Translations under genes and position numbers: made by a program
Part shown: one piece after another, positions 763-40,296 of the stretch
Numbering within the stretch: position 1 is the first letter of the stretch
How the letters are laid out: the number at the start of each line of letters is the position of its first letter
The notes under the pieces: model-generated
The model's database searches: none
Told to the model about the DNA's origin: nothing
What the model saw: the letters and a program-made list of their open reading frames with translations, nothing else
IMG/VR virus record: IMGVR_UViG_3300045410_000017
Span: 1-42,103 of that record
DNA length: 42,103 nucleotides
Reading direction: 5' to 3' (one strand)
DNA from: a virus
Lineage: Duplodnaviria > Caudoviricetes

Positions 763-768
763 CAAGGT

Positions 769-840
769 TTGGTGGCCGGGAGGGCCGACGCCCCCTCGTT
801 GGTAGTGTGGCAATAGCTTCACCTGCCTCCCGGCCGCCAA
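769..840 (+). promoter_or_regulatory. Intergenic multi-stem RNA structure
   Basis: 15-bp stem 769-783/826-840 (one G-U) enclosing two small hairpins. Confidence 0.55.
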
Positions 841-892
841 GGTTCTACTCAACCGAGTCGGATTCGACTCAACCTCGAAAGGCAACACAACC

Positions 893-15220: not shown

Positions 15221-15724
15221 TTAGTGTACCACACGATACCGAGCCAAGTAGGCTGTCGCTCTCTCCCAGTGATCTTCAAGCCGCCCTAATGACGTATTGC
15301 ACGCAAAGCAAAGAAGCCCACGACGACACTGATCGCACGCTCGCCCAGGTGGGCAGCAGGCATGGTTGTGATCGACTGCTAGTTCTCTCGCAGCCCCTCG
15401 CACCTCGCCTCGGCGATGTTCGATTACCTCGCTGCACCCACATATCGCACAGAGTCCATCCTGCTCAGACTTCATGCTTTCGTATTCTCCGGGGGTGAGC
15501 CCAAGATGAGATAGTCGCTTCTCCGTGCTGCGAGCGAGCACGGCCTGTGGGTTGGCTTCTGCCCACGCCCTCGCCCGTTCCCGGTTCTTCGCCTGGAACT
15601 CTGGTGTATCCCGCACCTTCCGGTAGTACGCCTTCTGCCGCTCATTACAGCAGTCCCGGCACCTCCGCTCGGACGGCGAGAAGCCACATTCAGGGTCGAT
15701 ACGCTTGCAGGTGGAACAGGTCAT
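15221..15724 (-). CDS. Endonuclease VII-family HNH homing endonuclease
   Basis: QDGLCAIC, LAVDHNH, RGLLCFACNTSLG; lower GC; between scaffold and capsid genes. Confidence 0.9.
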   Translation of the reverse strand: MTCSTCKRIDPECGFSPSERRCRDCCNERQKAYYRKVRDTPEFQAKNRERARAWAEANPQAVLARSTEKRLSHLGLTPGEYESMKSEQDGLCAICGCSEVIEHRRGEVRGAARELAVDHNHACCPPGRACDQCRRGLLCFACNTSLGRLEDHWERATAYLARYRVVH

Positions 15725-16846: not shown

Positions 16847-18910
16847 TTATACCCCGCCCTGGGTGATGGCGGCGAGTTCGAGCAAGGCGTCCCGCTCGAT
16901 CTGTCCTTGGTCGAGGGCAGCACCCTGACCCATCAGGGCGGCGGCCTCCCGCTCAGCGGCGGCGGCCGGGTCACCTTCGAGCACGTCCGTGGAGGTGAGG
17001 CCCTCCATGCCGAGCGGCTCCTCGGACACGGGCAGAGCCTCGCTGCCGTCGACCTTGGGCGTGGCGGCGAGCGCCGGCCCCCCGGCGTTCATGGCACTCT
17101 GCTGGCGGGCGGCTTCCTCGGCCCCGAGCGTCTCGTGGGCTTGGATGTGGGCGGCGCACACGTCCTTGATCTCCGACGACAGCCGGTCGTACCGGGCGGT
17201 CTTGCGGAAGGCGTTGTGCTCTTGGATGTGGATGCCGTGGTCGTCCCAGTCCTCGGGCATCCGAACCTCACCCTGCGCCATAGCGTAGTTCTCACGCCGG
17301 GCACGGGCCACGTCCGGGCGCACGGCCTCCACGATCTGCCGCTCGCCAGGCGCTTCGGCCAGGCGGGTCAGTTCCTCGATCGTGGTGATGAGCCCCATCT
17401 GCATCATCTTCTCGGCCATCTGCGCCTGGGCGGCGGCCGACCGGGGGGCGACCAGCTCGATCGGCACGACGGCCGTGGTCTGGCCGGCGAGATCCTTGCC
17501 GGTCCACTTCGTGGTCTCGGGCGGCTGGCCTGGCATCACGGTGACAGCGGTGCGCTTCTCCTTCACGTTGTCGGCGTACAGCGCCAGCACGTCGGAGGCG
17601 ATCTCGCCGAACATGCGGGCCATGCTGCCGGCCATCTTGCCGATCGGGGTGGCGTCCTGCTCGGCCAGCACAGCCAGCCCGTAGCCGGACTCGATGTTGG
17701 CCGGCGCAGAGCCCCGGCTCACGTCGTGGACGCCCATGATGTTGTCGATCTCGGCCCCCAGCTCGCCTGGCATCTGCAAGAGCCAGGCAGGGAGTTGGGG
17801 CGGCGACAGCCACGACGGCTTGTCCATGCCGTCCGCATAGACGATCTGCTCGCCGATCACGTCCGAGTAAACCTCGGTGAGTTCGATGGCGGACTGCGGG
17901 GTGGCGAGGCGGGCGTTGCCGGCCACGTCGGCGTGCTCCAGAATGTTCGACCACGCAGCGTTGAAAGCGGCCTGCACGGGGCGGGCCACGGTCATCACGG
18001 TCTCGCCGATCCAGGTGTTCTCCACCACGGTCTCTCGGGCCGTAGTGAAGTTCAGGTGGTCAACGAACGGGAACGGCCAGGGCTTCGGCCCCCACACCGT
18101 CTTGTTGTTGACGATGACCTCGATCTTGCCCTTCTCGTTGTTCGGGTTGGGGCGCTCGTAGTAGGTGAGCACGAGCGTGAGCGGCGTGTCGGTGCTGTCC
18201 TTGTCGGCCTTGGGGCCGTCTAGTCCGCTAGACAGGCCACCGACCAGGCCACGCTCAAGCGAGGACAGCCCGTTTGTGGCGTCCGAGTCGGGCTCCTTCT
18301 CAAGTCCGTAGGCGGCCTTGACCTCGGACGGGGCGAGGGCCTGCGCCTTGATCCACCAGTGCCCTTCACGGGCCACTCGTGCTCCTGGCTGGACAACGAA
18401 CTCGGCAATGGACAGTGCGGTCTCGGACGTGTCGCCGCTCGGGAGCAGGCGGCCGTCGTCGGCGAGCGCCGATGGCTTGCCCTTCGACGGAGCCCAGTCC
18501 GTGCAGATGGCCCCGGTGCCGCCCTTGAGCGTCGACCAGGCAATGCTCTCTCTGAGCGTTTCCCACTGGTGCTCTCGGGACACGGCGGCGAGGATGGCCT
18601 CGGCGATCTTGGAGCCTTCGATTGCCACGTCGTCGGCGCTGTTGGGGCGCACCTCGAACACGAGCGGGCGCTGCACCAACTTCGAGATGATCGTGCGGCT
18701 GGCCGGCCACAGCTTGTTGATGGTGGCCCGGAGCCGGTCCTCACTGTTCGGCACCTCCTCCAACCACAGGCTCTCCCGGTTGAAGTGAACCCACTGGTTG
18801 CCACGGAGGAACGCAGAGTTGACCCAATATTCTCTATTAGCCTTCCGTTGGCTCTTGAGCCCGGCACGATACAAGTCAACGACCGGATGATTGTCCTTGT
18901 TCTTAGCCAT
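16847..18910 (-). CDS. Portal protein (P22-like)
   Basis: 687 aa; AFLRGNQW, GVHDVSRG, ESGYGLAVLAEQD, DDHGIHIQEH; between TerL and scaffold. Confidence 0.88.
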   Translation of the reverse strand: MAKNKDNHPVVDLYRAGLKSQRKANREYWVNSAFLRGNQWVHFNRESLWLEEVPNSEDRLRATINKLWPASRTIISKLVQRPLVFEVRPNSADDVAIEGSKIAEAILAAVSREHQWETLRESIAWSTLKGGTGAICTDWAPSKGKPSALADDGRLLPSGDTSETALSIAEFVVQPGARVAREGHWWIKAQALAPSEVKAAYGLEKEPDSDATNGLSSLERGLVGGLSSGLDGPKADKDSTDTPLTLVLTYYERPNPNNEKGKIEVIVNNKTVWGPKPWPFPFVDHLNFTTARETVVENTWIGETVMTVARPVQAAFNAAWSNILEHADVAGNARLATPQSAIELTEVYSDVIGEQIVYADGMDKPSWLSPPQLPAWLLQMPGELGAEIDNIMGVHDVSRGSAPANIESGYGLAVLAEQDATPIGKMAGSMARMFGEIASDVLALYADNVKEKRTAVTVMPGQPPETTKWTGKDLAGQTTAVVPIELVAPRSAAAQAQMAEKMMQMGLITTIEELTRLAEAPGERQIVEAVRPDVARARRENYAMAQGEVRMPEDWDDHGIHIQEHNAFRKTARYDRLSSEIKDVCAAHIQAHETLGAEEAARQQSAMNAGGPALAATPKVDGSEALPVSEEPLGMEGLTSTDVLEGDPAAAAEREAAALMGQGAALDQGQIERDALLELAAITQGGV

Positions 18911-19299
18911 CAGGACACGTACTCCAGGGCGCTCGTGATCAGGGTTGGGGAATCTCGGAGATGGCCGATACCGATGTTACAGGTGCGGCAGAGAAGCCCA
19001 CGCACTTCTCCGGTCTGGTGGTCGTGGTCAACGCAGGTGTGCCGTGGCTTCATTTTCAACTCACAGATAGCACACAAGCCGGCCTGGCGAGTGACGAGAG
19101 CTGCGAATTCGTGGTGTTGGAGTCCGTAATCACGGAGCCGTCGCTGGGCGGCGGCGTAGCCGGGTTTCGCAGCTCGCCTTGCCGCCCCTGACTTCTTGTT
19201 GCACACACGACAATAGGAAGTGAGGCCGTCCTTTGACGCCCGATTGACGTAGAACGTCTCCGGTCCTCCCTGCTTCCCGCATTTCCCGCAGGACTTCAT
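18910..19299 (-). CDS. Endonuclease VII-family HNH homing endonuclease
   Basis: QAGLCAIC, VDHDHQTGEVRGLLCRTCNIGIG; stop overlaps the portal ATG. Confidence 0.9.
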   Translation of the reverse strand: MKSCGKCGKQGGPETFYVNRASKDGLTSYCRVCNKKSGAARRAAKPGYAAAQRRLRDYGLQHHEFAALVTRQAGLCAICELKMKPRHTCVDHDHQTGEVRGLLCRTCNIGIGHLRDSPTLITSALEYVS

Positions 19300-19535
19300 C
19301 CGAGTCCCAACCCTCGCAGGCGAGGCTCAGGGAAGTCGGCCTCAACCTCGGGGATGCGCCGCTTGGCGACGGTCGTGGGGCGGGCGGCCTTGTCGAGCAT
19401 GGCGAGTTCCTTCGAGTTGTTGGCGATAAGCGCCCGGGTGAGCGCATGTACCTCTCGGAGGAGGAGGCGAGCGGTGGCGTAGTTGAGAGCGGCGAGCCCA
19501 ACCACGGAACCTACGAAATACTCGACGCCGATCAC
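19296..19535 (-). CDS. Small membrane-anchored hypothetical protein
   Basis: N-terminal hydrophobic helix; coupled on both sides. Confidence 0.65.
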   Translation of the reverse strand: MIGVEYFVGSVVGLAALNYATARLLLREVHALTRALIANNSKELAMLDKAARPTTVAKRRIPEVEADFPEPRLRGLGLG

Positions 19536-19930
19536 AGGGAAGAGGCCACGGCGTCGACCAACTTAGCGTCGGCTTCGAGATACACAGAGCCGACCAGACG
19601 TTCTACAACATCCCGGTCGATGCGGGCCTGGGCGGCGGCGGCCAGGACCTCCTCGGACTCGGTGGTCGCCTCGTCAGCGATCTGGCGGGCCTGTTCGAGG
19701 ATCTCGACTGCCTCGGAGCGAGGAACACAGTGGAGGACCCGAGCCACCTGCAAGCCGCAGTCGTAGCACAGCCCGAAATGGCCCAGGAAGTCGTCACGGG
19801 CACCCAAACTGATGCACTGAACGCCGACCTCGGCCCCCAGAGTGGACACGTTGCTACCGCAGGCGAGGCATCCCGAGCCCTTGGCCCACTTTACCGTAGA
19901 GTCGAAGTTGTGGTGAGCGGTGATCGTCAT
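19532..19930 (-). CDS. Hypothetical zinc-finger protein
   Basis: CLAC...CYDC then coiled coil; SD GAGGA before ATG 19930. Confidence 0.65.
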   Translation of the reverse strand: MTITAHHNFDSTVKWAKGSGCLACGSNVSTLGAEVGVQCISLGARDDFLGHFGLCYDCGLQVARVLHCVPRSEAVEILEQARQIADEATTESEEVLAAAAQARIDRDVVERLVGSVYLEADAKLVDAVASSL

Positions 19931-19977
19931 GGTTGGGGGAGTCCTCTCGGTTCCTGGCAAGGGTCTGGCTTAGTATA

Positions 19978-21522
19978 TCAGTTGCCGGTCATCATGGCCC
20001 GGCGAGCGACCCCGTCCTTGGGCTTGCGCTGGCGGGCCTTGATCTGGCGGGCGATCTTCTCCTGCACCGTCAAGAGGGGCTTGACAGGAGCGGGCTGGGC
20101 GGCTGTGGGGCGGCCCTTAGCGAACTCGATGGCTCCGTACGAGATCGTATCCACAATGTCGTCGTGGAGTCCGTTGTCGAACGACAGCAGTTCCCGGCGG
20201 GCCTCATCGAGCCACGGCGCGTCCTCCAACATGAGGAGTTGTCCCTGCGTGGAGAGCGTGGCAGCGGTCTGCGCTCGGGCCACCTTGTCGGCCTCGGCGG
20301 CCTCGGGGCGGAACAGCGGCATCCCGTTGCGGCCGAACTTGCGGGCCGTCGAGAGCAACGTCGAGCCGAAGGTCTTGTCCTCCACACCGATGAACACGGG
20401 CCACTCGGCTCGCTCCAGGGTGCGGATCTGGTTGTCGACCCACTCGATGTGCTCGCCCGAGTCCACCCGGTCACGGAAGATGTGGGTGACGTAGAGCTTC
20501 GGGTGGGGCGGTGCGGAGGCGAAGAACAGCGTCAGCACCGTGTAGTCGGCCCTCGACTTCTTCGAGTGGGCGGTGTCGAGCATCCCGAACCGCCGGCCCT
20601 TGGTCTCGGGCAACTTCTTGTAGGTGAGCAGGTTCTTGCCCTTGAAGATGTCGCCGTCCTCGGGGGCCGGTCGGCACTGATACAGCGACGTGAAGGTCGA
20701 CGGCCGGCGTACCCGGATCTTCTCCAGATCCTCGGCGCTGTAGCGTTGGGGGCACAGCGGCTCGCCACGCTCCCGGCCGAGCGGGTCGTCGTCCTCGGCG
20801 AGAGCGGGCAGGCGGATGACCTCCCACTCTCCGGTCGCCACGGCTCGTCCGATCACGTCGTCCTCGTGGCGGGGCGTGCCCAGCAGGATGGCCTTGGCGT
20901 CAGGTTCGAGGCGGGTCAAAGCGTCGTCCACGAACCAGTCCCACGTCTTGTCACGGATGACCTTGGAGTCGGCCTCCTCCTTGTTCTTCACAAGGTCGTC
21001 CATCAGCAGCCAGTTGGCGGGCAGGCCGGTGATCTGGCCGCCCACTCCCGTGCCCACGTACGAGCCCTCGCCCTCGGCCGGGTGCACCAGGAAGTTGTCG
21101 ACGGCCTTTGCGGACGGGTCGAGCCGGGGCGTCAGGTTCTTGGCGTTGGCGAGCTGCATCAGGTTGCGGGTCTTGCGGCCGAACTTGACGGTGAAGTCGT
21201 GGGCGTAGGTGGCATGGATCACGGCGGCGGACGGGTCATTGGCGAGCACCCACGCTGGGACCGTCTCGGAGAGCAGGTAGCTCTTGCCGTGGCGGGGCGG
21301 CATCATCAGGATGACCTTGGCCCCCGGCCCCATGCCGGCGATCACGTCGCTGATGAACCGGCTGTGCCGCCACTCCTTGGCGTCCTCACGGGTGGCGATG
21401 GCGAAGTCGAGCGGCGACAGCAGCGCAACGTGCTTGGCGAGGGCGGCGTGGTAGGCACGGCGCTCCGAAGCGGAGGCTAGCGCCAGCAGGTCGTCGGGGA
21501 TGATCTCAAAGGCCACAGACAA
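19978..21522 (-). CDS. terL: Terminase large subunit
   Basis: Walker A MPPRHGKS, Walker B LLMDDLVK, LYQCRP, HDDIVD; true start may be GTG 21516. Confidence 0.95.
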   Translation of the reverse strand: MSVAFEIIPDDLLALASASERRAYHAALAKHVALLSPLDFAIATREDAKEWRHSRFISDVIAGMGPGAKVILMMPPRHGKSYLLSETVPAWVLANDPSAAVIHATYAHDFTVKFGRKTRNLMQLANAKNLTPRLDPSAKAVDNFLVHPAEGEGSYVGTGVGGQITGLPANWLLMDDLVKNKEEADSKVIRDKTWDWFVDDALTRLEPDAKAILLGTPRHEDDVIGRAVATGEWEVIRLPALAEDDDPLGRERGEPLCPQRYSAEDLEKIRVRRPSTFTSLYQCRPAPEDGDIFKGKNLLTYKKLPETKGRRFGMLDTAHSKKSRADYTVLTLFFASAPPHPKLYVTHIFRDRVDSGEHIEWVDNQIRTLERAEWPVFIGVEDKTFGSTLLSTARKFGRNGMPLFRPEAAEADKVARAQTAATLSTQGQLLMLEDAPWLDEARRELLSFDNGLHDDIVDTISYGAIEFAKGRPTAAQPAPVKPLLTVQEKIARQIKARQRKPKDGVARRAMMTGN

Positions 21523-23031: not shown

Positions 23032-23057
23032 GAACAGAGTGTATCACGGCCCGGTCG

Positions 23058-23337
23058 CCCGGAACGGGGAGAGCCGGCCCTCGAACCCGAACGCAGCCTC
23101 CCGAAGGAAGCCAACCGCTCCGAGTTGTCAGGCCGGCTCAGAACCGGCAGTAATCGGTGGCGCCTAGTGTGCTTTCGCAGACCGCACAGACACATCTCCG
23201 TCAGGAACCGAGTCAGGTCACCGTGAGGTTTCCAGCCCCGGCACGAACATCTGGCCCGAAAGCCGTCCGTTCTCCGTTCTTCAACGTGCTGGGTGTGCGC
23301 CCCACTTGGGCCTCACGTCGTCAGCACCGGACTTGCA
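23058..23337 (-). ncRNA. Large structured non-coding RNA candidate, family not recognised
   Basis: TGC-TACACT box at 23343-23348; no credible ORF; many stems with cUUCGg and GAAA loops and minus-strand G-U pairs. Ends approximate. Confidence 0.65.
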
Positions 23338-23384
23338 CAGATAGTGTAGCACACCTCCCCTCTTGGCCGGGGCGGACAGGCCGC

Positions 23385-23444
23385 CTACAGGAGAATGACG
23401 AGGATCACTACGAGGAGTATGACGCAGATGGCACCGTAGCTCAT
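23385..23444 (-). CDS. 19-aa hydrophobic micropeptide MSYGAICVILLVVILVILL
   Basis: Not in the ORF track; TAGACT 5 nt upstream of the ATG; small hairpin after the stop. Confidence 0.6.
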   Translation of the reverse strand: MSYGAICVILLVVILVILL

Positions 23445-23452
23445 GCCCCAGT

Positions 23453-23890
23453 CTACACCGTGGCGATGAGCCCCAACTCCTCCAAGCGGGAGATGATCGC
23501 CACCACGGCGGTGCGAACGGCCGCCGCCTCGGACTGGGAATAGACGACGCTCGGCGCTCCGGGGTCGGCCACGGATGCTGGTTGGTCAACGGGGGCAGCG
23601 CCCCAGAACCCCAACTTCTGGGTGGGGGCCGTGGCGATCTGGGTGCCGGTGGTTGTCCCCGCCTCGATGTTGCTGGCGTCGGCGATCACCAGCCCGGCGA
23701 AGGCCCCGCCCTCTCCGAGGACCGCTTCGGGGGGCTCTGTGCCGTCCCCCATCAGGATCTCGCCTCGGGGCGTCAGGTGGAGCCGCCATTCGGTGTCGCC
23801 GGCCAGCCCCAGCTTCACGCCCTTGTGCGTGTCGTCTCGGCCGTCAGAAATCTCAAAGTCGGAGGCGGGCGTTCGCTCGGGCTTGGGCAT
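23453..23890 (-). CDS. Head decoration/fibre-like virion protein
   Basis: TQKLGFWGAAPVDQP...LEELGLI motif; first gene of the minus arm; TATACT 5 nt upstream. Confidence 0.65.
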   Translation of the reverse strand: MPKPERTPASDFEISDGRDDTHKGVKLGLAGDTEWRLHLTPRGEILMGDGTEPPEAVLGEGGAFAGLVIADASNIEAGTTTGTQIATAPTQKLGFWGAAPVDQPASVADPGAPSVVYSQSEAAAVRTAVVAIISRLEELGLIATV

Positions 23891-23959: not shown

Positions 23960-24080
23960 CGGGGGGGCCAAAGGGGGTACACCCCCCATGCCGCACCCGA
24001 TCGACACCCCACACCCCACACAACGCAACGACAACGACACCCCACACAATCGACACACACCCCACACCCCACACACCCCG
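23960..24080. repeat. C/A-rich short-repeat tract, candidate terminus/packaging region
   Basis: Repeated ACACCCCAC units, a G run and a GGGGGTACACCCCC inverted repeat between divergent arms. Confidence 0.6.
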
Positions 24081-30513: not shown

Positions 30514-30891
30514 GTGGCTGTCGGCCGGCCGTTCCGCTACGATCAGACGCTCACCGACTACGGTGAGGGTCCGATCAAGATGGCGTCGACCAAGCTCACC
30601 AATGCACAACTTGATTCCCGCCGGGCGCAGCAACGGGCCTACGCCAAGCACAAGAGAGCGACGGACCCGGCGTGGGTGGCCCGGCGCAACGAGATGCAAC
30701 GCAAGCTGCGGGCCAAGGCCCCGACCCTAAAGGAAGAATCACCGAACGACCCCCGCACCCCGGCCGAGCACGGGACCCCACAAAGGTATCGTCGGCACGG
30801 GTGCAGGTGTGTAAGATGCACGATGGCCGTGCGTGACGACATGAGAATCTACAGGACCGGAGATGCGGGGCCAGAGTTCAACCTCAGATGA
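30514..30891 (+). CDS. Hypothetical basic protein with HGT...CRCxxC finger
   Basis: EHGTPQRYRRHGCRCVRC. Confidence 0.7.
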   Translation: MAVGRPFRYDQTLTDYGEGPIKMASTKLTNAQLDSRRAQQRAYAKHKRATDPAWVARRNEMQRKLRAKAPTLKEESPNDPRTPAEHGTPQRYRRHGCRCVRCTMAVRDDMRIYRTGDAGPEFNLR

Positions 30892-30903
30892 TACACTGGC
30901 TGC

Positions 30904-31449
30904 ATGTGTGCTGTAGAAGGATGCAACGGAAAGATCAGAAGTCGGGGTGTGTGCAGCGCCCACTACCAACGGCTACGCAAGGCCGGCGTTCTTGTTAGCC
31001 AGCGTCAGAGGGCGGCTGGCTGTGTTTGTTCCGTCGAGGGATGCGAACGCCCGGCCAAGGGGCGTGGACTGTGTAACACACACTACTCACGACAGCGCCG
31101 CCGAGGGACGACCGACGATCCGATCCGAGCGGAGGGAGCAGAGAGTTCAGCTTGGCAAGGCGGACGGTGTGTAACTTCACGAGGCTATGTGATCGTGACG
31201 ATACCGAAAGATGACCCCTTCGTGTCGATGTGCCCGCAGAAGTCACGGCTACTGGAACACAGGCTTGTGATGGCACGACATCTCGGACGCCCGTTGCGGA
31301 CAGAAGAAACCGTCCATCACATCGACGGCAACAAGCAGAACAACAAGATCGAGAACCTCCAACTCCGAGCCGGTCATCATGGTCCTGGGTTCGTCGTCAA
31401 GTGTGGCGACTGTGGATCTCACAACATCGTGTCACTCCCACTAGATTGA
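30904..31449 (+). CDS. HNH homing endonuclease
   Basis: Two CxVEGC..LCxxHY-type repeats; EHRLVMA..LGRPL...VHHIDGNKQNN. Confidence 0.9.
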   Translation: MCAVEGCNGKIRSRGVCSAHYQRLRKAGVLVSQRQRAAGCVCSVEGCERPAKGRGLCNTHYSRQRRRGTTDDPIRAEGAESSAWQGGRCVTSRGYVIVTIPKDDPFVSMCPQKSRLLEHRLVMARHLGRPLRTEETVHHIDGNKQNNKIENLQLRAGHHGPGFVVKCGDCGSHNIVSLPLD

Positions 31450-35261: not shown

Positions 35262-35509
35262 GCGCTGAGACAGACGACATCCTCGCCAAGTTCACCGACA
35301 TGCTACGTATTCCCACGGGCGATGGTGCCAGCAAGAGGGACGCTGGCACTAAGGTACATTGGATGATTGACACCTCGCACCCGGACGCCGCCGCCGCCCA
35401 CTACGGAGAATGGCTGCTCGGGCACACGTTCGACACAGAATCAGGCGCACACCATTTGATCCACGCAGCCTGGAGATTCTTGGCTATCGCAGCCCAGGAG
35501 ACAGCATGA
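35258..35509 (+). CDS. DUF5664 / dATP-dGTP diphosphohydrolase-like protein (83 aa)
   Basis: AAAHYGEWLLGHTFDTESGAHHLIHAAW. Confidence 0.65.
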   Translation: MSAETDDILAKFTDMLRIPTGDGASKRDAGTKVHWMIDTSHPDAAAAHYGEWLLGHTFDTESGAHHLIHAAWRFLAIAAQETA

Positions 35510-36111
35510 AGCAATGCACGAAGTGCCACGAGACCAAGCCGCTAGATCAGTTCTATGCACAGCGGAGCTGCAAGGACGGGCGGCGGCCAGACTGCAAGGA
35601 CTGCCGCCGCAAGTACAACAGCCAGCGCATCGAACGTCAGGCAGAACTACGCAGACGACGGACGCTAGGGCGTTACGGGGTGGACGAGCAGGGCTGGGCG
35701 GATGTGCTGGAAATCCAAGGAGGTGTCTGTGCCATCTGCGGACTCTCCCCCGAGACTGGCGCTCGCCCTCTCTGTGTTGACCACGACCATGAGACAGACG
35801 ACGTGCGGGGACTGCTGTGCCCCACCTGCAACGGCGGGCTAGGGATGTTTCGTGATGACCCAGCCCTTCTTGTCACGGCAGCACAGTATCTCAAGTTCTG
35901 GTCAGACGGATGGGGAAAGGCGAAGGAGATTATCGGCCAGGCCCAGTTCTGGAAGGAGGTGCAGGACGGGAGGCTACGGACCACGCCCTACTTCGACCGT
36001 GCACCGTGCGCCACCAAGCTCGCCGGCATGAACGTGGTGGTCGACCGCAACGTCCCGCCCGGCACGCTCTGGTTACGCTGTCTCTCGGATCGACATGGAG
36101 CCCTTCGATGA
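35506..36111 (+). CDS. Endonuclease VII-family HNH endonuclease with C-terminal extension
   Basis: KQCTKC..KPLDQF, QGGVCAIC, VDHDH...VRGLLCPTCNGGLG. Confidence 0.88.
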   Translation: MKQCTKCHETKPLDQFYAQRSCKDGRRPDCKDCRRKYNSQRIERQAELRRRRTLGRYGVDEQGWADVLEIQGGVCAICGLSPETGARPLCVDHDHETDDVRGLLCPTCNGGLGMFRDDPALLVTAAQYLKFWSDGWGKAKEIIGQAQFWKEVQDGRLRTTPYFDRAPCATKLAGMNVVVDRNVPPGTLWLRCLSDRHGALR

Positions 36112-36961: not shown

Positions 36962-37396
36962 ATGAGACTGGGTTGTCTGCATGGACATGATGCTGCGCAC
37001 TATGTTCGGGACCGCTCAGGACGGCCGTGGTGCAGAGAGTGCAACAGGATTCGCCAGCAGGGATACAGGAATCGGCTAACACCAGAGCAGAAAGAGGCGT
37101 CTCTCGAACGCTACCGAATCTCGGTTAGGCGGACGGGCGAAGCACTACGCCAAAGCGTCTTGGATGCGTACGGACGAGCGTGTGTTTGTTGTGGCGAGGC
37201 GCATGAGCGATTCCTGTGTGTCGATCACATAGACGGCGGCGGCAACAACCATCGCCGTGAGATTGGGAATGGACGAGCCTTCTATCGCTGGCTCAGGGAC
37301 AACGATTGGCCGACAGGATTCCAGATCCTTTGTCACAACTGCAACTTTGCAAAGTCGCATGGAGGATGTCCTCATGGACAGAGTGCCCCCCGCTGA
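36962..37396 (+). CDS. HNH endonuclease
   Basis: CLHGH, YGRACVCCGE..FLCVDHIDGGG, QILCHNCN; overlaps the polymerase start. Confidence 0.88.
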   Translation: MRLGCLHGHDAAHYVRDRSGRPWCRECNRIRQQGYRNRLTPEQKEASLERYRISVRRTGEALRQSVLDAYGRACVCCGEAHERFLCVDHIDGGGNNHRREIGNGRAFYRWLRDNDWPTGFQILCHNCNFAKSHGGCPHGQSAPR

Positions 37397-39367: not shown

Positions 39368-39544
39368 ATGATCCCGATGGTGGATGAGTTCCTCGGCTAC
39401 GCTGACGGCATCATGTTCGCCGTGGGGCGAGGGCTGTACGAGCGCCTGCCCGTGCCGTGCCGGGTGTGCCGGCGGTGCGGGGCCGTGGTCATTGACGAGG
39501 AAATCCACGACATCTGGCACGGTAGACTAGAGGCTCAGACGTGA
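39368..39544 (+). CDS. Small zinc-finger protein (58 aa)
   Basis: CRRCGAVV....HDIWH; stop overlaps GTG 39541. Confidence 0.6.
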   Translation: MIPMVDEFLGYADGIMFAVGRGLYERLPVPCRVCRRCGAVVIDEEIHDIWHGRLEAQT

Positions 39545-40296
39545 CGAGAGAGACAGATGACACCGACAGACGATCGCTATTCCCCGGCAAGCCTCCGACA
39601 CCGAGCATCGGTAGCGAGGGAGCGGGCCGCGTACTTCATCCAGCAGGCCGAGCGCCTCGAACAGGCATCAAGGGAACTGGCACCCACAACGACCGAGCCG
39701 CCTGCCAAGAGTGCGGAGGCCCCAAAGAACCAGGAACCAGGAAGATGCGGTGCGCCCCCTGTATCGCTAAGTGGTACTACACCACACCTTCTGGCGAAGT
39801 ACGACGCCGAATCCTATGCCGGTGTGGTGGGCTAAAGGAGCAGGGCAAGTGGTACTGTGATGAGTGTCGTGTCATCATCCAAGCGACAAACGGTGTGGCG
39901 GCCAATGAGCGACGACGAGACAAGTATCTCCAGGCGCAGTATGGAATCAACCAAGCCCGCTACCTTGAGATCAAGGAAGAACAGGAAGGCGTGTGCGCCA
40001 TCTGTTCTCGGCCAGCGCCCGGCGGCAGGAATCTCGACGTAGACCATTGCCACAAGACGGGGGCCGTGCGTGGCTTGTTGTGCGCCCGGTGCAACCAACA
40101 ACTCTTGCCGATCGCCAAGGACGACCCTGTTCTGCTGCGGGCGGCGGCCGACTACCTAGAGCGAGAGCCGCTCGGGTGGGCGCCCCAGCCTGAGGATCTC
40201 CCTGATAGTCTAAAGGGACACCTTCGGAAGAACCGTGACGTTGACCGGCCCTTGAAGGAACTTCCTCGATGGATGAGTAAGAACAAAGGATGGTAA
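39541..40296 (+). CDS. Endonuclease VII-family HNH endonuclease
   Basis: QEGVCAIC, LDVDHCHKTGAVRGLLCARCN, LRAAADYLE. Confidence 0.88.
   Translation: MTRETDDTDRRSLFPGKPPTPSIGSEGAGRVLHPAGRAPRTGIKGTGTHNDRAACQECGGPKEPGTRKMRCAPCIAKWYYTTPSGEVRRRILCRCGGLKEQGKWYCDECRVIIQATNGVAANERRRDKYLQAQYGINQARYLEIKEEQEGVCAICSRPAPGGRNLDVDHCHKTGAVRGLLCARCNQQLLPIAKDDPVLLRAAADYLEREPLGWAPQPEDLPDSLKGHLRKNRDVDRPLKELPRWMSKNKGW

What the first reader, a model, noticed from the sequence alone, without database searches (positions are those of the whole stretch)
23058..23348. Unrecognised ~280-nt structured ncRNA with its own promoter in the late virion arm
Seen: a gap with no credible ORF begins just after a TGC-TACACT box like those that drive neighbouring genes. 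On the minus strand nearly all of it can pair. GTGCTG (23327-22) pairs with CAGCAC (23291-86) and CGTGAGG (23317-11) with CCTCACG (23228-22); these helices cross, so they form a pseudoknot or a switch. Further stems include GGCTTCC-TTCG-GGAGGCT, GC-GAAA-GC, GCCGGTT/AGCCGGC and GAGGGC/GCTCTC, and CTGAC recurs four times. Tetraloops and G-U pairs fix the strand. It does not match tRNA, tmRNA, RNase P or group I intron hallmarks as I know them. Inference: a late phage RNA near the packaging genes; packaging, decoy or catalytic roles are all open.
Basis: partly seen in the sequence, partly recalled or inferred. Interest (0 to 1): 0.85.

Follow-up and report, generated by a model that had tools for sequence, protein, structure and literature searches.

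The report
Orphan phage RNA upstream of terminase
A podovirus-like phage carries a 290-base non-coding stretch behind a promoter-like box that matches no Rfam family; it is likely a folded accessory RNA that would act as a decoy for a host RNA-binding factor, but its expression, fold and target are untested.

Summary
The gap is real and non-coding (all six frames score below real genes). It starts 6 nt behind an extended -10 box; the four flanking boxes all open leaderless ORFs, this one does not. The named motifs sit at the stated coordinates. But 'nearly all can pair' is chance level (fold z -0.44; 7-bp helices 3 vs 3.1 expected). The crossing helix is unsupported, and two named stems lose to a 9-bp helix. 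Real signals: 5 tetraloop hairpins on the minus strand (1.2 expected, p=0.01), a 69-nt UUCG-capped 3' hairpin, and one low-depth relative whose listed changes fall in loops or keep a pair. Rfam, tmRNA, RNase P, Ms1 and purpose-built phage group IA2 intron models all fail. The two closest relatives also have 180-250-nt structured gaps before terminase, but homology is not significant, so there is no covariation proof. One relative carries a tRNA-like-domain-only tmRNA. Best reading: an accessory trans-acting structured RNA (about 0.6 that it is a functional transcript), most likely a host-factor decoy (about 0.33). Packaging or ribozyme roles are less likely. No RNA data were available.

The parts
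23343..23351 (-). extended -10 promoter-like box TGCTACACT, no start codon 5-6 nt behind it
   Evidence: 10 of 28 TAnACT hexamers in the genome are followed by ATG/GTG at 5-6 nt (p=9e-6); promoter function is inferred
23047..23336 (-). candidate non-coding RNA, about 290 nt; inferred start G23336, 3' end about 23047-23069
   Evidence: ends inferred, no transcript data
23286..23327 (-). 5' arm GUGCUG/CAGCAC, holding CGUGAGG
   Evidence: pair probability 0.82-0.84 for 4 of 6 pairs
23222..23317 (-). crossing 7-bp helix CGUGAGG (23317-11) / CCUCACG (23228-22): possible pseudoknot, unproven
23253..23264 (-). GGCU-UUCG-GGCC hairpin
   Evidence: probability about 0.5
23200..23221 (-). GUGACC-N6-GGUU-CCUGAC bulged hairpin; the 6-nt loop takes 4 of the 6 listed changes in run X4; same pattern in the L004 gap (not significant)
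   Evidence: probability only 0.03 in the full-length ensemble
23160..23193 (-). arm ending in UGC-GAAA-GCA
   Evidence: probability about 0.55
23071..23139 (-). 69-nt 3' hairpin closed by 9-bp GAGCCGGCC/GGCCGGCUC and capped by C-UUCG-G
   Evidence: closing helix probability about 1.0; -44 kcal/mol, z -3.8; 3rd lowest energy of 1752 windows, but 34 windows reach z<=-3.5
23050..23063 (-). last hairpin with GCGA loop, no U-tract
23038..23046 (-). next box TGATACACT, with the ATG of a 56-aa ORF 6 nt behind; bounds the gap
23385..23444 (-). upstream leaderless 19-aa hydrophobic ORF with its own box
23453..23890 (-). 145-aa ORF, first gene of the virion arm; N-terminus shared with a fibre-like gene of L326
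21541..22857 (-). tail-fibre-like gene
   Evidence: PHROG hits E 1e-9
19978..21522 (-). terminase large subunit
   Evidence: phrog_38 E 1e-86

Best explanation
The 290-base stretch is non-coding, lies between two extended -10 boxes in the variable module before terminase, and is likely a separately transcribed, folded accessory RNA that would act in trans as a decoy for a host RNA-binding factor during infection. Shown: the box, the lack of coding signal, the minus-strand tetraloop excess, the dominant 3' hairpin, and no match to any tested family. Inferred: host sigma-A-type polymerase starts at about G23336; the RNA folds into a multi-arm 5' domain (possibly pseudoknotted) and a long UUCG-capped 3' hairpin that would stabilise the 3' end; it is swappable cargo rather than a core virion part; it works by binding a host protein (polymerase, ribosome-rescue or defence factor) rather than by base-pairing or catalysis. 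About 0.6 that it is a functional transcript, about 0.33 for the decoy mechanism.
For: (1) The four flanking boxes (23901, 23455, 23043, 21527) each open a leaderless ORF; this one has none at 5-6 nt, and the next gene has its own box, so it needs no 290-nt leader. (2) Non-coding in six frames. (3) 5 tetraloop hairpins vs 1.24 expected, 1 on the other strand. (4) A 174-nt contig in run X4 differs at 9 letters, against 17 of 142 for a fibre-gene contig in the same run (Fisher p=0.038; interior 6/113 vs third codon positions 7/27, p=0.004). Of the 6 listed changes, 4 cluster in one 6-nt loop (p=0.002), one turns UUCG into UUUG and one turns an A-U pair into G-U. (5) The two closest relatives with sequence there (L004, TerL 52%; L326, TerL 59%) each have a 184-247-nt non-coding gap in this module, with sense-strand z -2.0 and -2.1. 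(6) The L326 phage (G018) carries an 82-nt tRNA-like-domain-only tmRNA behind a similar box (63.4 bits). PMC4131195 (passages read) reports such an RNA in mycobacteriophage DS6A and suggests SmpB titration. So mimic RNAs occur as cargo in this clade. (7) The longest perfect complement to the rest of the genome is 12 nt, and there is no above-chance duplex with the upstream peptide mRNA.
Against: Whole-region folding is at chance (z -0.44). No covariation set: 0 of 17 related records matched by DNA. The three gaps do not align better than shuffles (local p=0.12 and 0.89, global p about 0.6), and a structure model scores the L004 motif at 10 bits, E=1.7. The X4 evidence is one depth-3.3 contig, not physically linked to the fibre contig; the run was found through words of this region (ascertainment bias), and 3 of its 9 changes are not listed. 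In the full-length ensemble 2 of the 4 clustered sites are predicted paired. No U-tract terminator, so the transcript may read through. No target or binding partner is identified; the decoy step rests on analogy only.
Confidence: 0.33

Rival explanations
1. It is a cis-acting structured leader or stabiliser: the box starts a longer late mRNA that reads through the hairpins into the 56-aa gene, the fibre gene and terminase, and the folds tune stability or attenuation.
For: No U-tract terminator. In L004 the gap directly precedes the TerL start codon and a GGAGAGG stretch. Other boxes in the window also have no start codon behind them, for example before the capsid gene.
Against: The next three genes have their own boxes or leaderless starts. 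290 nt with five tetraloop hairpins is more than a stabiliser needs (inference).
Confidence: 0.25
2. It is a non-functional spacer or decayed gene or mobile-element remnant in a mosaic module; the structure is what 65% GC gives.
For: Fold z about 0 and helix counts not enriched. No significant homology in relatives. The genome has at least 7 HNH/EndoVII-type genes.
Against: Strand-specific tetraloop excess, an intact box, low and loop-clustered divergence in X4, and no residual coding signal.
Confidence: 0.2
3. It is a ribozyme with a group-I-like double-pseudoknot core. CGUGAGG/CCUCACG and ACGGACG (23270-64)/UGUCUGU (23192-86) cross as P3 and P7 do, with a P8-like hairpin between them and a GNRA arm behind.
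For: The helix order can be drawn this way, and GAAAC and GGAGAU..GUCUG resemble the T4 td intron read.
Against: Own IA2 HMM: element 0.0 bits, at another place, vs 35.6-72.6 for 6 of 6 held-out introns. Own IA2 covariance model: no hit at E<=10 vs 57-106 bits for 5 of 5 held-out introns. RF00028 gave none. The invariant AACGACTA and AGATATAGTC are absent, there is no room for P5, and no split gene flanks it.
Confidence: 0.08
4. It is a packaging or virion RNA (works like phi29 pRNA): the crossing 7-bp helix forms between molecules to build a ring on the prohead of a phage with no recognised small terminase.
For: It lies 1.5 kb before TerL, near the probable genome end. No small terminase was found by PHROGs, and candidate small-terminase ORFs of L006 and L007 have no tblastn match in the window.
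Against: TerL is a two-domain nuclease-type terminase (PF03237 + PF17289), not a phi29-type ATPase (established knowledge). An essential RNA should be alignable in relatives at 52-59% TerL identity and is not. 7-bp helices are at chance frequency.
Confidence: 0.07
5. It is the antitoxin or regulator of the upstream 19-aa hydrophobic peptide.
For: The peptide has the size and hydrophobicity of type I toxin peptides (recalled resemblance) and is adjacent.
Against: Same strand, no overlap; duplex energy -67.1 vs -71.0+-4.1 for shuffles. No comparable peptide was seen near the gaps of L175 or L326.
Confidence: 0.04

Closest known systems
TLD-only tmRNA of mycobacteriophage DS6A (PMC4131195, passages read) and of relative G018
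   Same: Phage-borne, separately promoted, non-coding cargo proposed to titrate a host factor; G018 belongs to the same phage clade.
   Different: The window's RNA is 290 nt, has no intact T-arm (G-G at the loop-closing pair), no acceptor/CCA end and no RF00023 or ARAGORN hit.
Ms1 RNA (RF02566), actinobacterial RNA-polymerase-core binder (PMC9130861, passages read)
   Same: About 300 nt, high-GC, multi-hairpin; the paper notes that distant homologues can be dissimilar in sequence.
   Different: No RF02566 match at E<=10 (no control genome passed the cut-off, so the test is weak). Ms1 is chromosomal with conserved synteny; central-bubble architecture not shown here.
Phage group IA2 introns (T4 td type)
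   Same: A P3/P7/P8/P9-like helix order can be drawn; UUCG and GNRA loops.
   Different: Fails own HMM, own covariance model and RF00028; catalytic-core invariants and P5 absent; not inside a gene.
phi29 pRNA (recalled)
   Same: Separately promoted phage RNA near a genome end, with crossing complementary loops.
   Different: Different terminase class; no Rfam hit; not alignable in relatives.
Candidate viral structured RNAs of Fremin et al. 2023 (PMC10690425; abstract, outline and a partial supplement search)
   Same: Intergenic phage structured RNA candidates of unknown function.
   Different: No hit for 4 motifs and 2 contig ids in the 3 of 6 supplement files that could be searched; the two zip archives, one table and mmc1-3 could not be read, so inclusion is not excluded.

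Membership tests
any Rfam 15 family | covariance-model match | tested here: not met
   0 at gathering score in the window; 3 weak unrelated matches at 13-20 bits, far below their cut-offs
group I intron (IA2) | invariant P7/J8-7 sequences and model match | tested here: not met
group I intron (IA2) | P3-P7 pseudoknot topology | tested here: inconclusive
   crossing helices can be drawn, but at chance frequency and with zero nested probability
group I intron (IA2) | interrupts a gene; P4-P5-P6 domain | tested here: not met
   flanking ORFs are complete, with their own boxes; 40 nt between the P3-like and P7-like strands leave no P5 (sequence)
group I intron (IA2) | self-splicing | not testable with these tools
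   needs an in-vitro assay
tmRNA / TLD-only RNA | tRNA-like domain with T-arm, acceptor stem, CCA | tested here: not met
   (the same search finds the G018 TLD)
RNase P RNA type A | RF00010 match | tested here: not met
   (controls rang in 11 of 14 genomes)
Ms1 RNA | RF02566 match | tested here: inconclusive
   no match, but no control genome passed the cut-off and the model misses distant homologues (PMC9130861)
Ms1 RNA | binds RNA polymerase core | not testable with these tools
   needs a pull-down
tRNA | cloverleaf with anticodon | tested here: not met
phi29-type pRNA | phi29-type packaging ATPase in the same genome | tested here: not met
   TerL carries PF03237 + PF17289 and matches phrog_38
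phi29-type pRNA | intermolecular loop pairing and prohead binding | not testable with these tools
   needs native gels and virion analysis
type I antitoxin | extended complementarity to the toxin mRNA | tested here: not met
phage structured ncRNA motif (covariation-defined) | compensatory changes across homologues | tested here: inconclusive
   only one close variant; no compensatory change, loop changes and one A-U to G-U; distant gaps not significantly homologous
phage structured ncRNA motif (covariation-defined) | discrete transcript | not testable with these tools
   no RNA holder listed

The most novel reading that the evidence does not exclude
The window, L004 and L326 gaps are diverged members of one new pseudoknotted RNA family of this podovirus clade. 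They would share a GU(G/C)ACC-N6-GG...GAC hairpin and a long 3' hairpin (base G(A/G)GCCGG/CCGGCUC in the window and L326, with the next two pairs swapped C-G to G-C). The family would serve as a packaging RNA in place of the missing small terminase, or as a group-I-like ribozyme core without P5.
Probability: 0.12. Interest if true: 0.9.

Novelty: new variant of a known kind. Interest (0 to 1): 0.45.

Why it matters
Phage non-coding RNAs of 200-300 nt are few and mostly unexplained. This uncultured clade of Jasmine-like podoviruses appears to keep a structured non-coding slot before terminase, and at least one member carries a tmRNA mimic. If expression and fold are confirmed, it is a new RNA motif and a lead to RNA decoys that phages use against high-GC hosts. 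A packaging or catalytic role would be a major surprise. At present it is a well-bounded single-sequence candidate without covariation proof.

Tried and rejected
Homologue hunts. blastn against phages gave only 19-37-nt chance pieces, plasmids one. nhmmer against L001-L018 found none; DNA search of 17 related records found 0 of 17. Pattern of the crossing helices in IMG/VR: 42 hits, none similar. Core-motif pattern: 26 hits, 1 the L004 contig it was designed on, 25 unrelated by eye. Composite pattern: 10 hits, 1 the L326 contig it was designed on. g145 pattern: 1 hit, the same contig. A looser core pattern missed L326 itself (0 of 5), so its match to the core is looser than first noted. GTDB scan: 67 hits, none from this phage clade. 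The contigs of the proteins at 65-81% TerL identity could not be reached. Expression: no RNA holder listed. Our earlier findings: 4 look-ups, nothing. Models: IA2 HMM and covariance model, RF00028, RF00010, RF00023 and RF02566 were negative. A single-sequence model of 23197-23270 found nothing below E=0.06 in relatives. Resemblance of the core to the G018 tmRNA 5' strand is not significant (p=0.61). Hammerhead, pistol, HDV-like, group II domain V, T-box and K-turn readings were considered from recall, not supported by the sequence or by Rfam, and not modelled separately. The sigma-70 two-hexamer scan found no site. The ARAGORN tRNA in G003 is a coding-repeat artefact. An atlas search for the 142-aa gene behind TerL gave hypothetical proteins only. 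Literature searches found no paper on such an RNA; the library lacks most subscription papers.

Full report
Context. The window is a 42,103-base virus record, complete by CheckV's estimate, 64.7% GC. Its capsid protein is about 32% identical to those of Arthrobacter phages Jasmine and Adat and Microbacterium phage Shocker (13 records). Jasmine is a podovirus with direct terminal repeats (PMC5513430, passages read). An actinobacterial host is inferred from this and from the promoter style; it was not shown. Virion genes run on the minus strand: a 145-aa ORF (23890-23453), a 19-aa hydrophobic ORF (23444-23385), the gap, a 56-aa ORF, a fibre-like gene, TerL, portal, capsid. Runs X1-X3, all sediment metagenomes, hold the gap with no differences; X1 may be the source.

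Observation. The gap is non-coding: six frames score -0.34 to -0.64 against +0.05 to +0.49 for 8 control genes (a doubtful 99-aa ORF and a mis-framed entry are left out). TAnACT hexamers mark gene starts in this genome: 10 of 28 are followed by ATG/GTG at 5-6 nt (p=9e-6), including all four boxes that flank the gap. The box at 23351-43 has only a GTG at 4 nt, which opens 5 codons, so its transcript would start near G23336 without a start codon (inferred). The claim that nearly everything pairs is not above chance: z -0.44, and 7-bp Watson-Crick helices number 3 against 3.06 expected. The crossing CGUGAGG/CCUCACG helix has zero probability in the nested ensemble; leaving its strands free costs 12.6 kcal/mol against a -10.4 duplex. 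GCCGGUU/AGCCGGC is displaced by a 9-bp helix that closes a 69-nt UUCG hairpin at 23139-23071 (probability about 1.0; z -3.8), and GAGGGC/GCUCUC overlaps the same helix. That hairpin has the third lowest energy of 1752 windows, although 34 windows reach z<=-3.5 and my window was placed on it. The best single-sequence signal is 5 tetraloop hairpins on the minus strand against 1.24+-1.08 in 300 shuffles (p=0.01) and 1 on the plus strand.

Relatives. One 174-nt contig of run X4 covers 23072-23245 with 9 differences; a fibre-gene contig of the same run has 17 in 142. Fisher p=0.038; against third codon positions (7 of 27) the interior rate of 6 in 113 gives p=0.004. Four of the 6 listed changes fall in one 6-nt stretch (p=0.002), the loop of the GACC/GGUU hairpin; one turns UUCG into UUUG; one turns A-U into G-U. 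Caveats: depth 3.3, unlinked contigs, the run was found through words of this region, 3 changes are unlisted, and in the full-length ensemble 2 of the 4 clustered sites are predicted paired. A TerL search gave 30 relatives at 48-81% identity, but only two with the upstream module could be fetched. L004 (52%) has a box followed by a 184-nt gap directly before TerL, holding GTGACC-N6-GGTTTCCGAC and UUCG and UUUG hairpins. L326 (59%) has a 247-nt gap ending in a long hairpin with the same base as the window's. Their sense strands fold at z -2.0 and -2.1. However, local and global alignments are no better than shuffles, and a structure model gives the L004 motif 10 bits, E=1.7. Homology is therefore a hypothesis. 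In L327 (40%), the 1.47 kb held upstream of TerL shows no such gap by eye. Other hunts were empty (see Tried and rejected).

Identity. Rfam gave nothing at gathering score and three weak unrelated matches at E<=10. Because the helix order recalls a group I core, I fetched T4 td and 14 other phage intron regions and built an HMM and a covariance model from 8 of these 15. The HMM scored 6 of 6 held-out introns at 35.6-72.6 bits and the element at 0.0; one long intron was left out. The covariance model scored 5 of 5 held-out introns at 57-106 bits and did not hit the element. RF00028, RF00010, RF00023 and RF02566 were negative on this genome (the Ms1 test is weak). The tmRNA search did find an 82-nt tRNA-like-domain-only RNA in the L326 phage (G018:8665-8746, 63.4 bits, E 2e-26) behind a TGCTAGGCT box, with a full T-arm; a gathering-level Rfam scan and ARAGORN missed it. 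PMC4131195 (passages) describes the same kind of RNA in mycobacteriophage DS6A and suggests SmpB titration. The window's RNA has no intact T-arm and no significant likeness to it (p=0.61).

Mechanism. An RNA with its own box, no reading frame, no extended complement in its genome (longest 12 nt) and no alignable counterpart in relatives at 52-59% TerL identity looks like exchangeable cargo rather than a core virion part. A sister phage carries a host-RNA mimic as such cargo. I therefore favour a trans-acting decoy for a host RNA-binding factor (0.33), within about 0.6 for any functional transcript. Rivals: a structured leader of a read-through mRNA (0.25; no U-tract terminator), a non-functional spacer (0.2), a ribozyme (0.08), a packaging RNA (0.07; no small terminase was found, but TerL is of the nuclease type), an antitoxin (0.04). 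The promoter's function, transcription, the fold and the target are all inferred.

Novelty. No family or paper was found. Fremin et al. 2023 (PMC10690425; abstract and outline read, 3 of 6 supplement files searched without a hit) could still list it in the files that could not be read. I rate it a new variant of a known kind, a phage-borne structured ncRNA with an unrecognised fold, at interest 0.45. The bold case (a new clade-wide packaging RNA or ribozyme) has probability 0.12.

Noticed in passing
G018:C1:8665-8746 (L356 1166-1247, +): tRNA-like-domain-only mini-tmRNA (RF00023, 63.4 bits) behind an extended -10-like box in a related phage; resembles the DS6A case and may titrate SmpB. Missed by ARAGORN and by a gathering-level Rfam scan.
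   Followed up: partly
window 764-841 (+): Strongest hairpin of the genome (z about -10): a long stem with two short arms in an intergenic gap; no credible Rfam match. Possibly a second small RNA.
   Followed up: partly
window 23385-23444 (-): Leaderless 19-aa strongly hydrophobic ORF with its own box, directly upstream of the element; small membrane peptide candidate.
   Followed up: partly
window, genome-wide: Many genes carry an extended -10 box with the start codon 5-6 nt behind it (10 of 28 TAnACT sites), pointing to wide use of leaderless mRNAs.
   Followed up: partly
window 15221-15724, 18910-19299, 30514-30891, 30904-31449, 35410-36111, 36962-37396, 39541-40296: Seven HNH or endonuclease-VII-type genes; no group I intron found by RF00028 or by my IA2 model.
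   Followed up: partly
window 23960-24080: G/C runs and CACACCC-type repeats where the long X1 contig stops; probable genome end or packaging-start region.
   Followed up: no
L004 4444-4627 (+); L326 14414-14660 (-): Structured non-coding gaps (z -2.0, -2.1) in the pre-terminase module of the two closest relatives; each is an ncRNA candidate in its own right.
   Followed up: partly
L006 and L007, about 200-250 nt upstream of the TerL match: Shared AATAGATACTGTCCGC-CCTAGAAC stretch between a small-terminase-like ORF and TerL; possible packaging or promoter site.
   Followed up: no
window 19532-19960 (-): 142-aa gene directly behind TerL, conserved in L004, L095 and L326; no family found, and no small terminase recognised in the genome.
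   Followed up: partly
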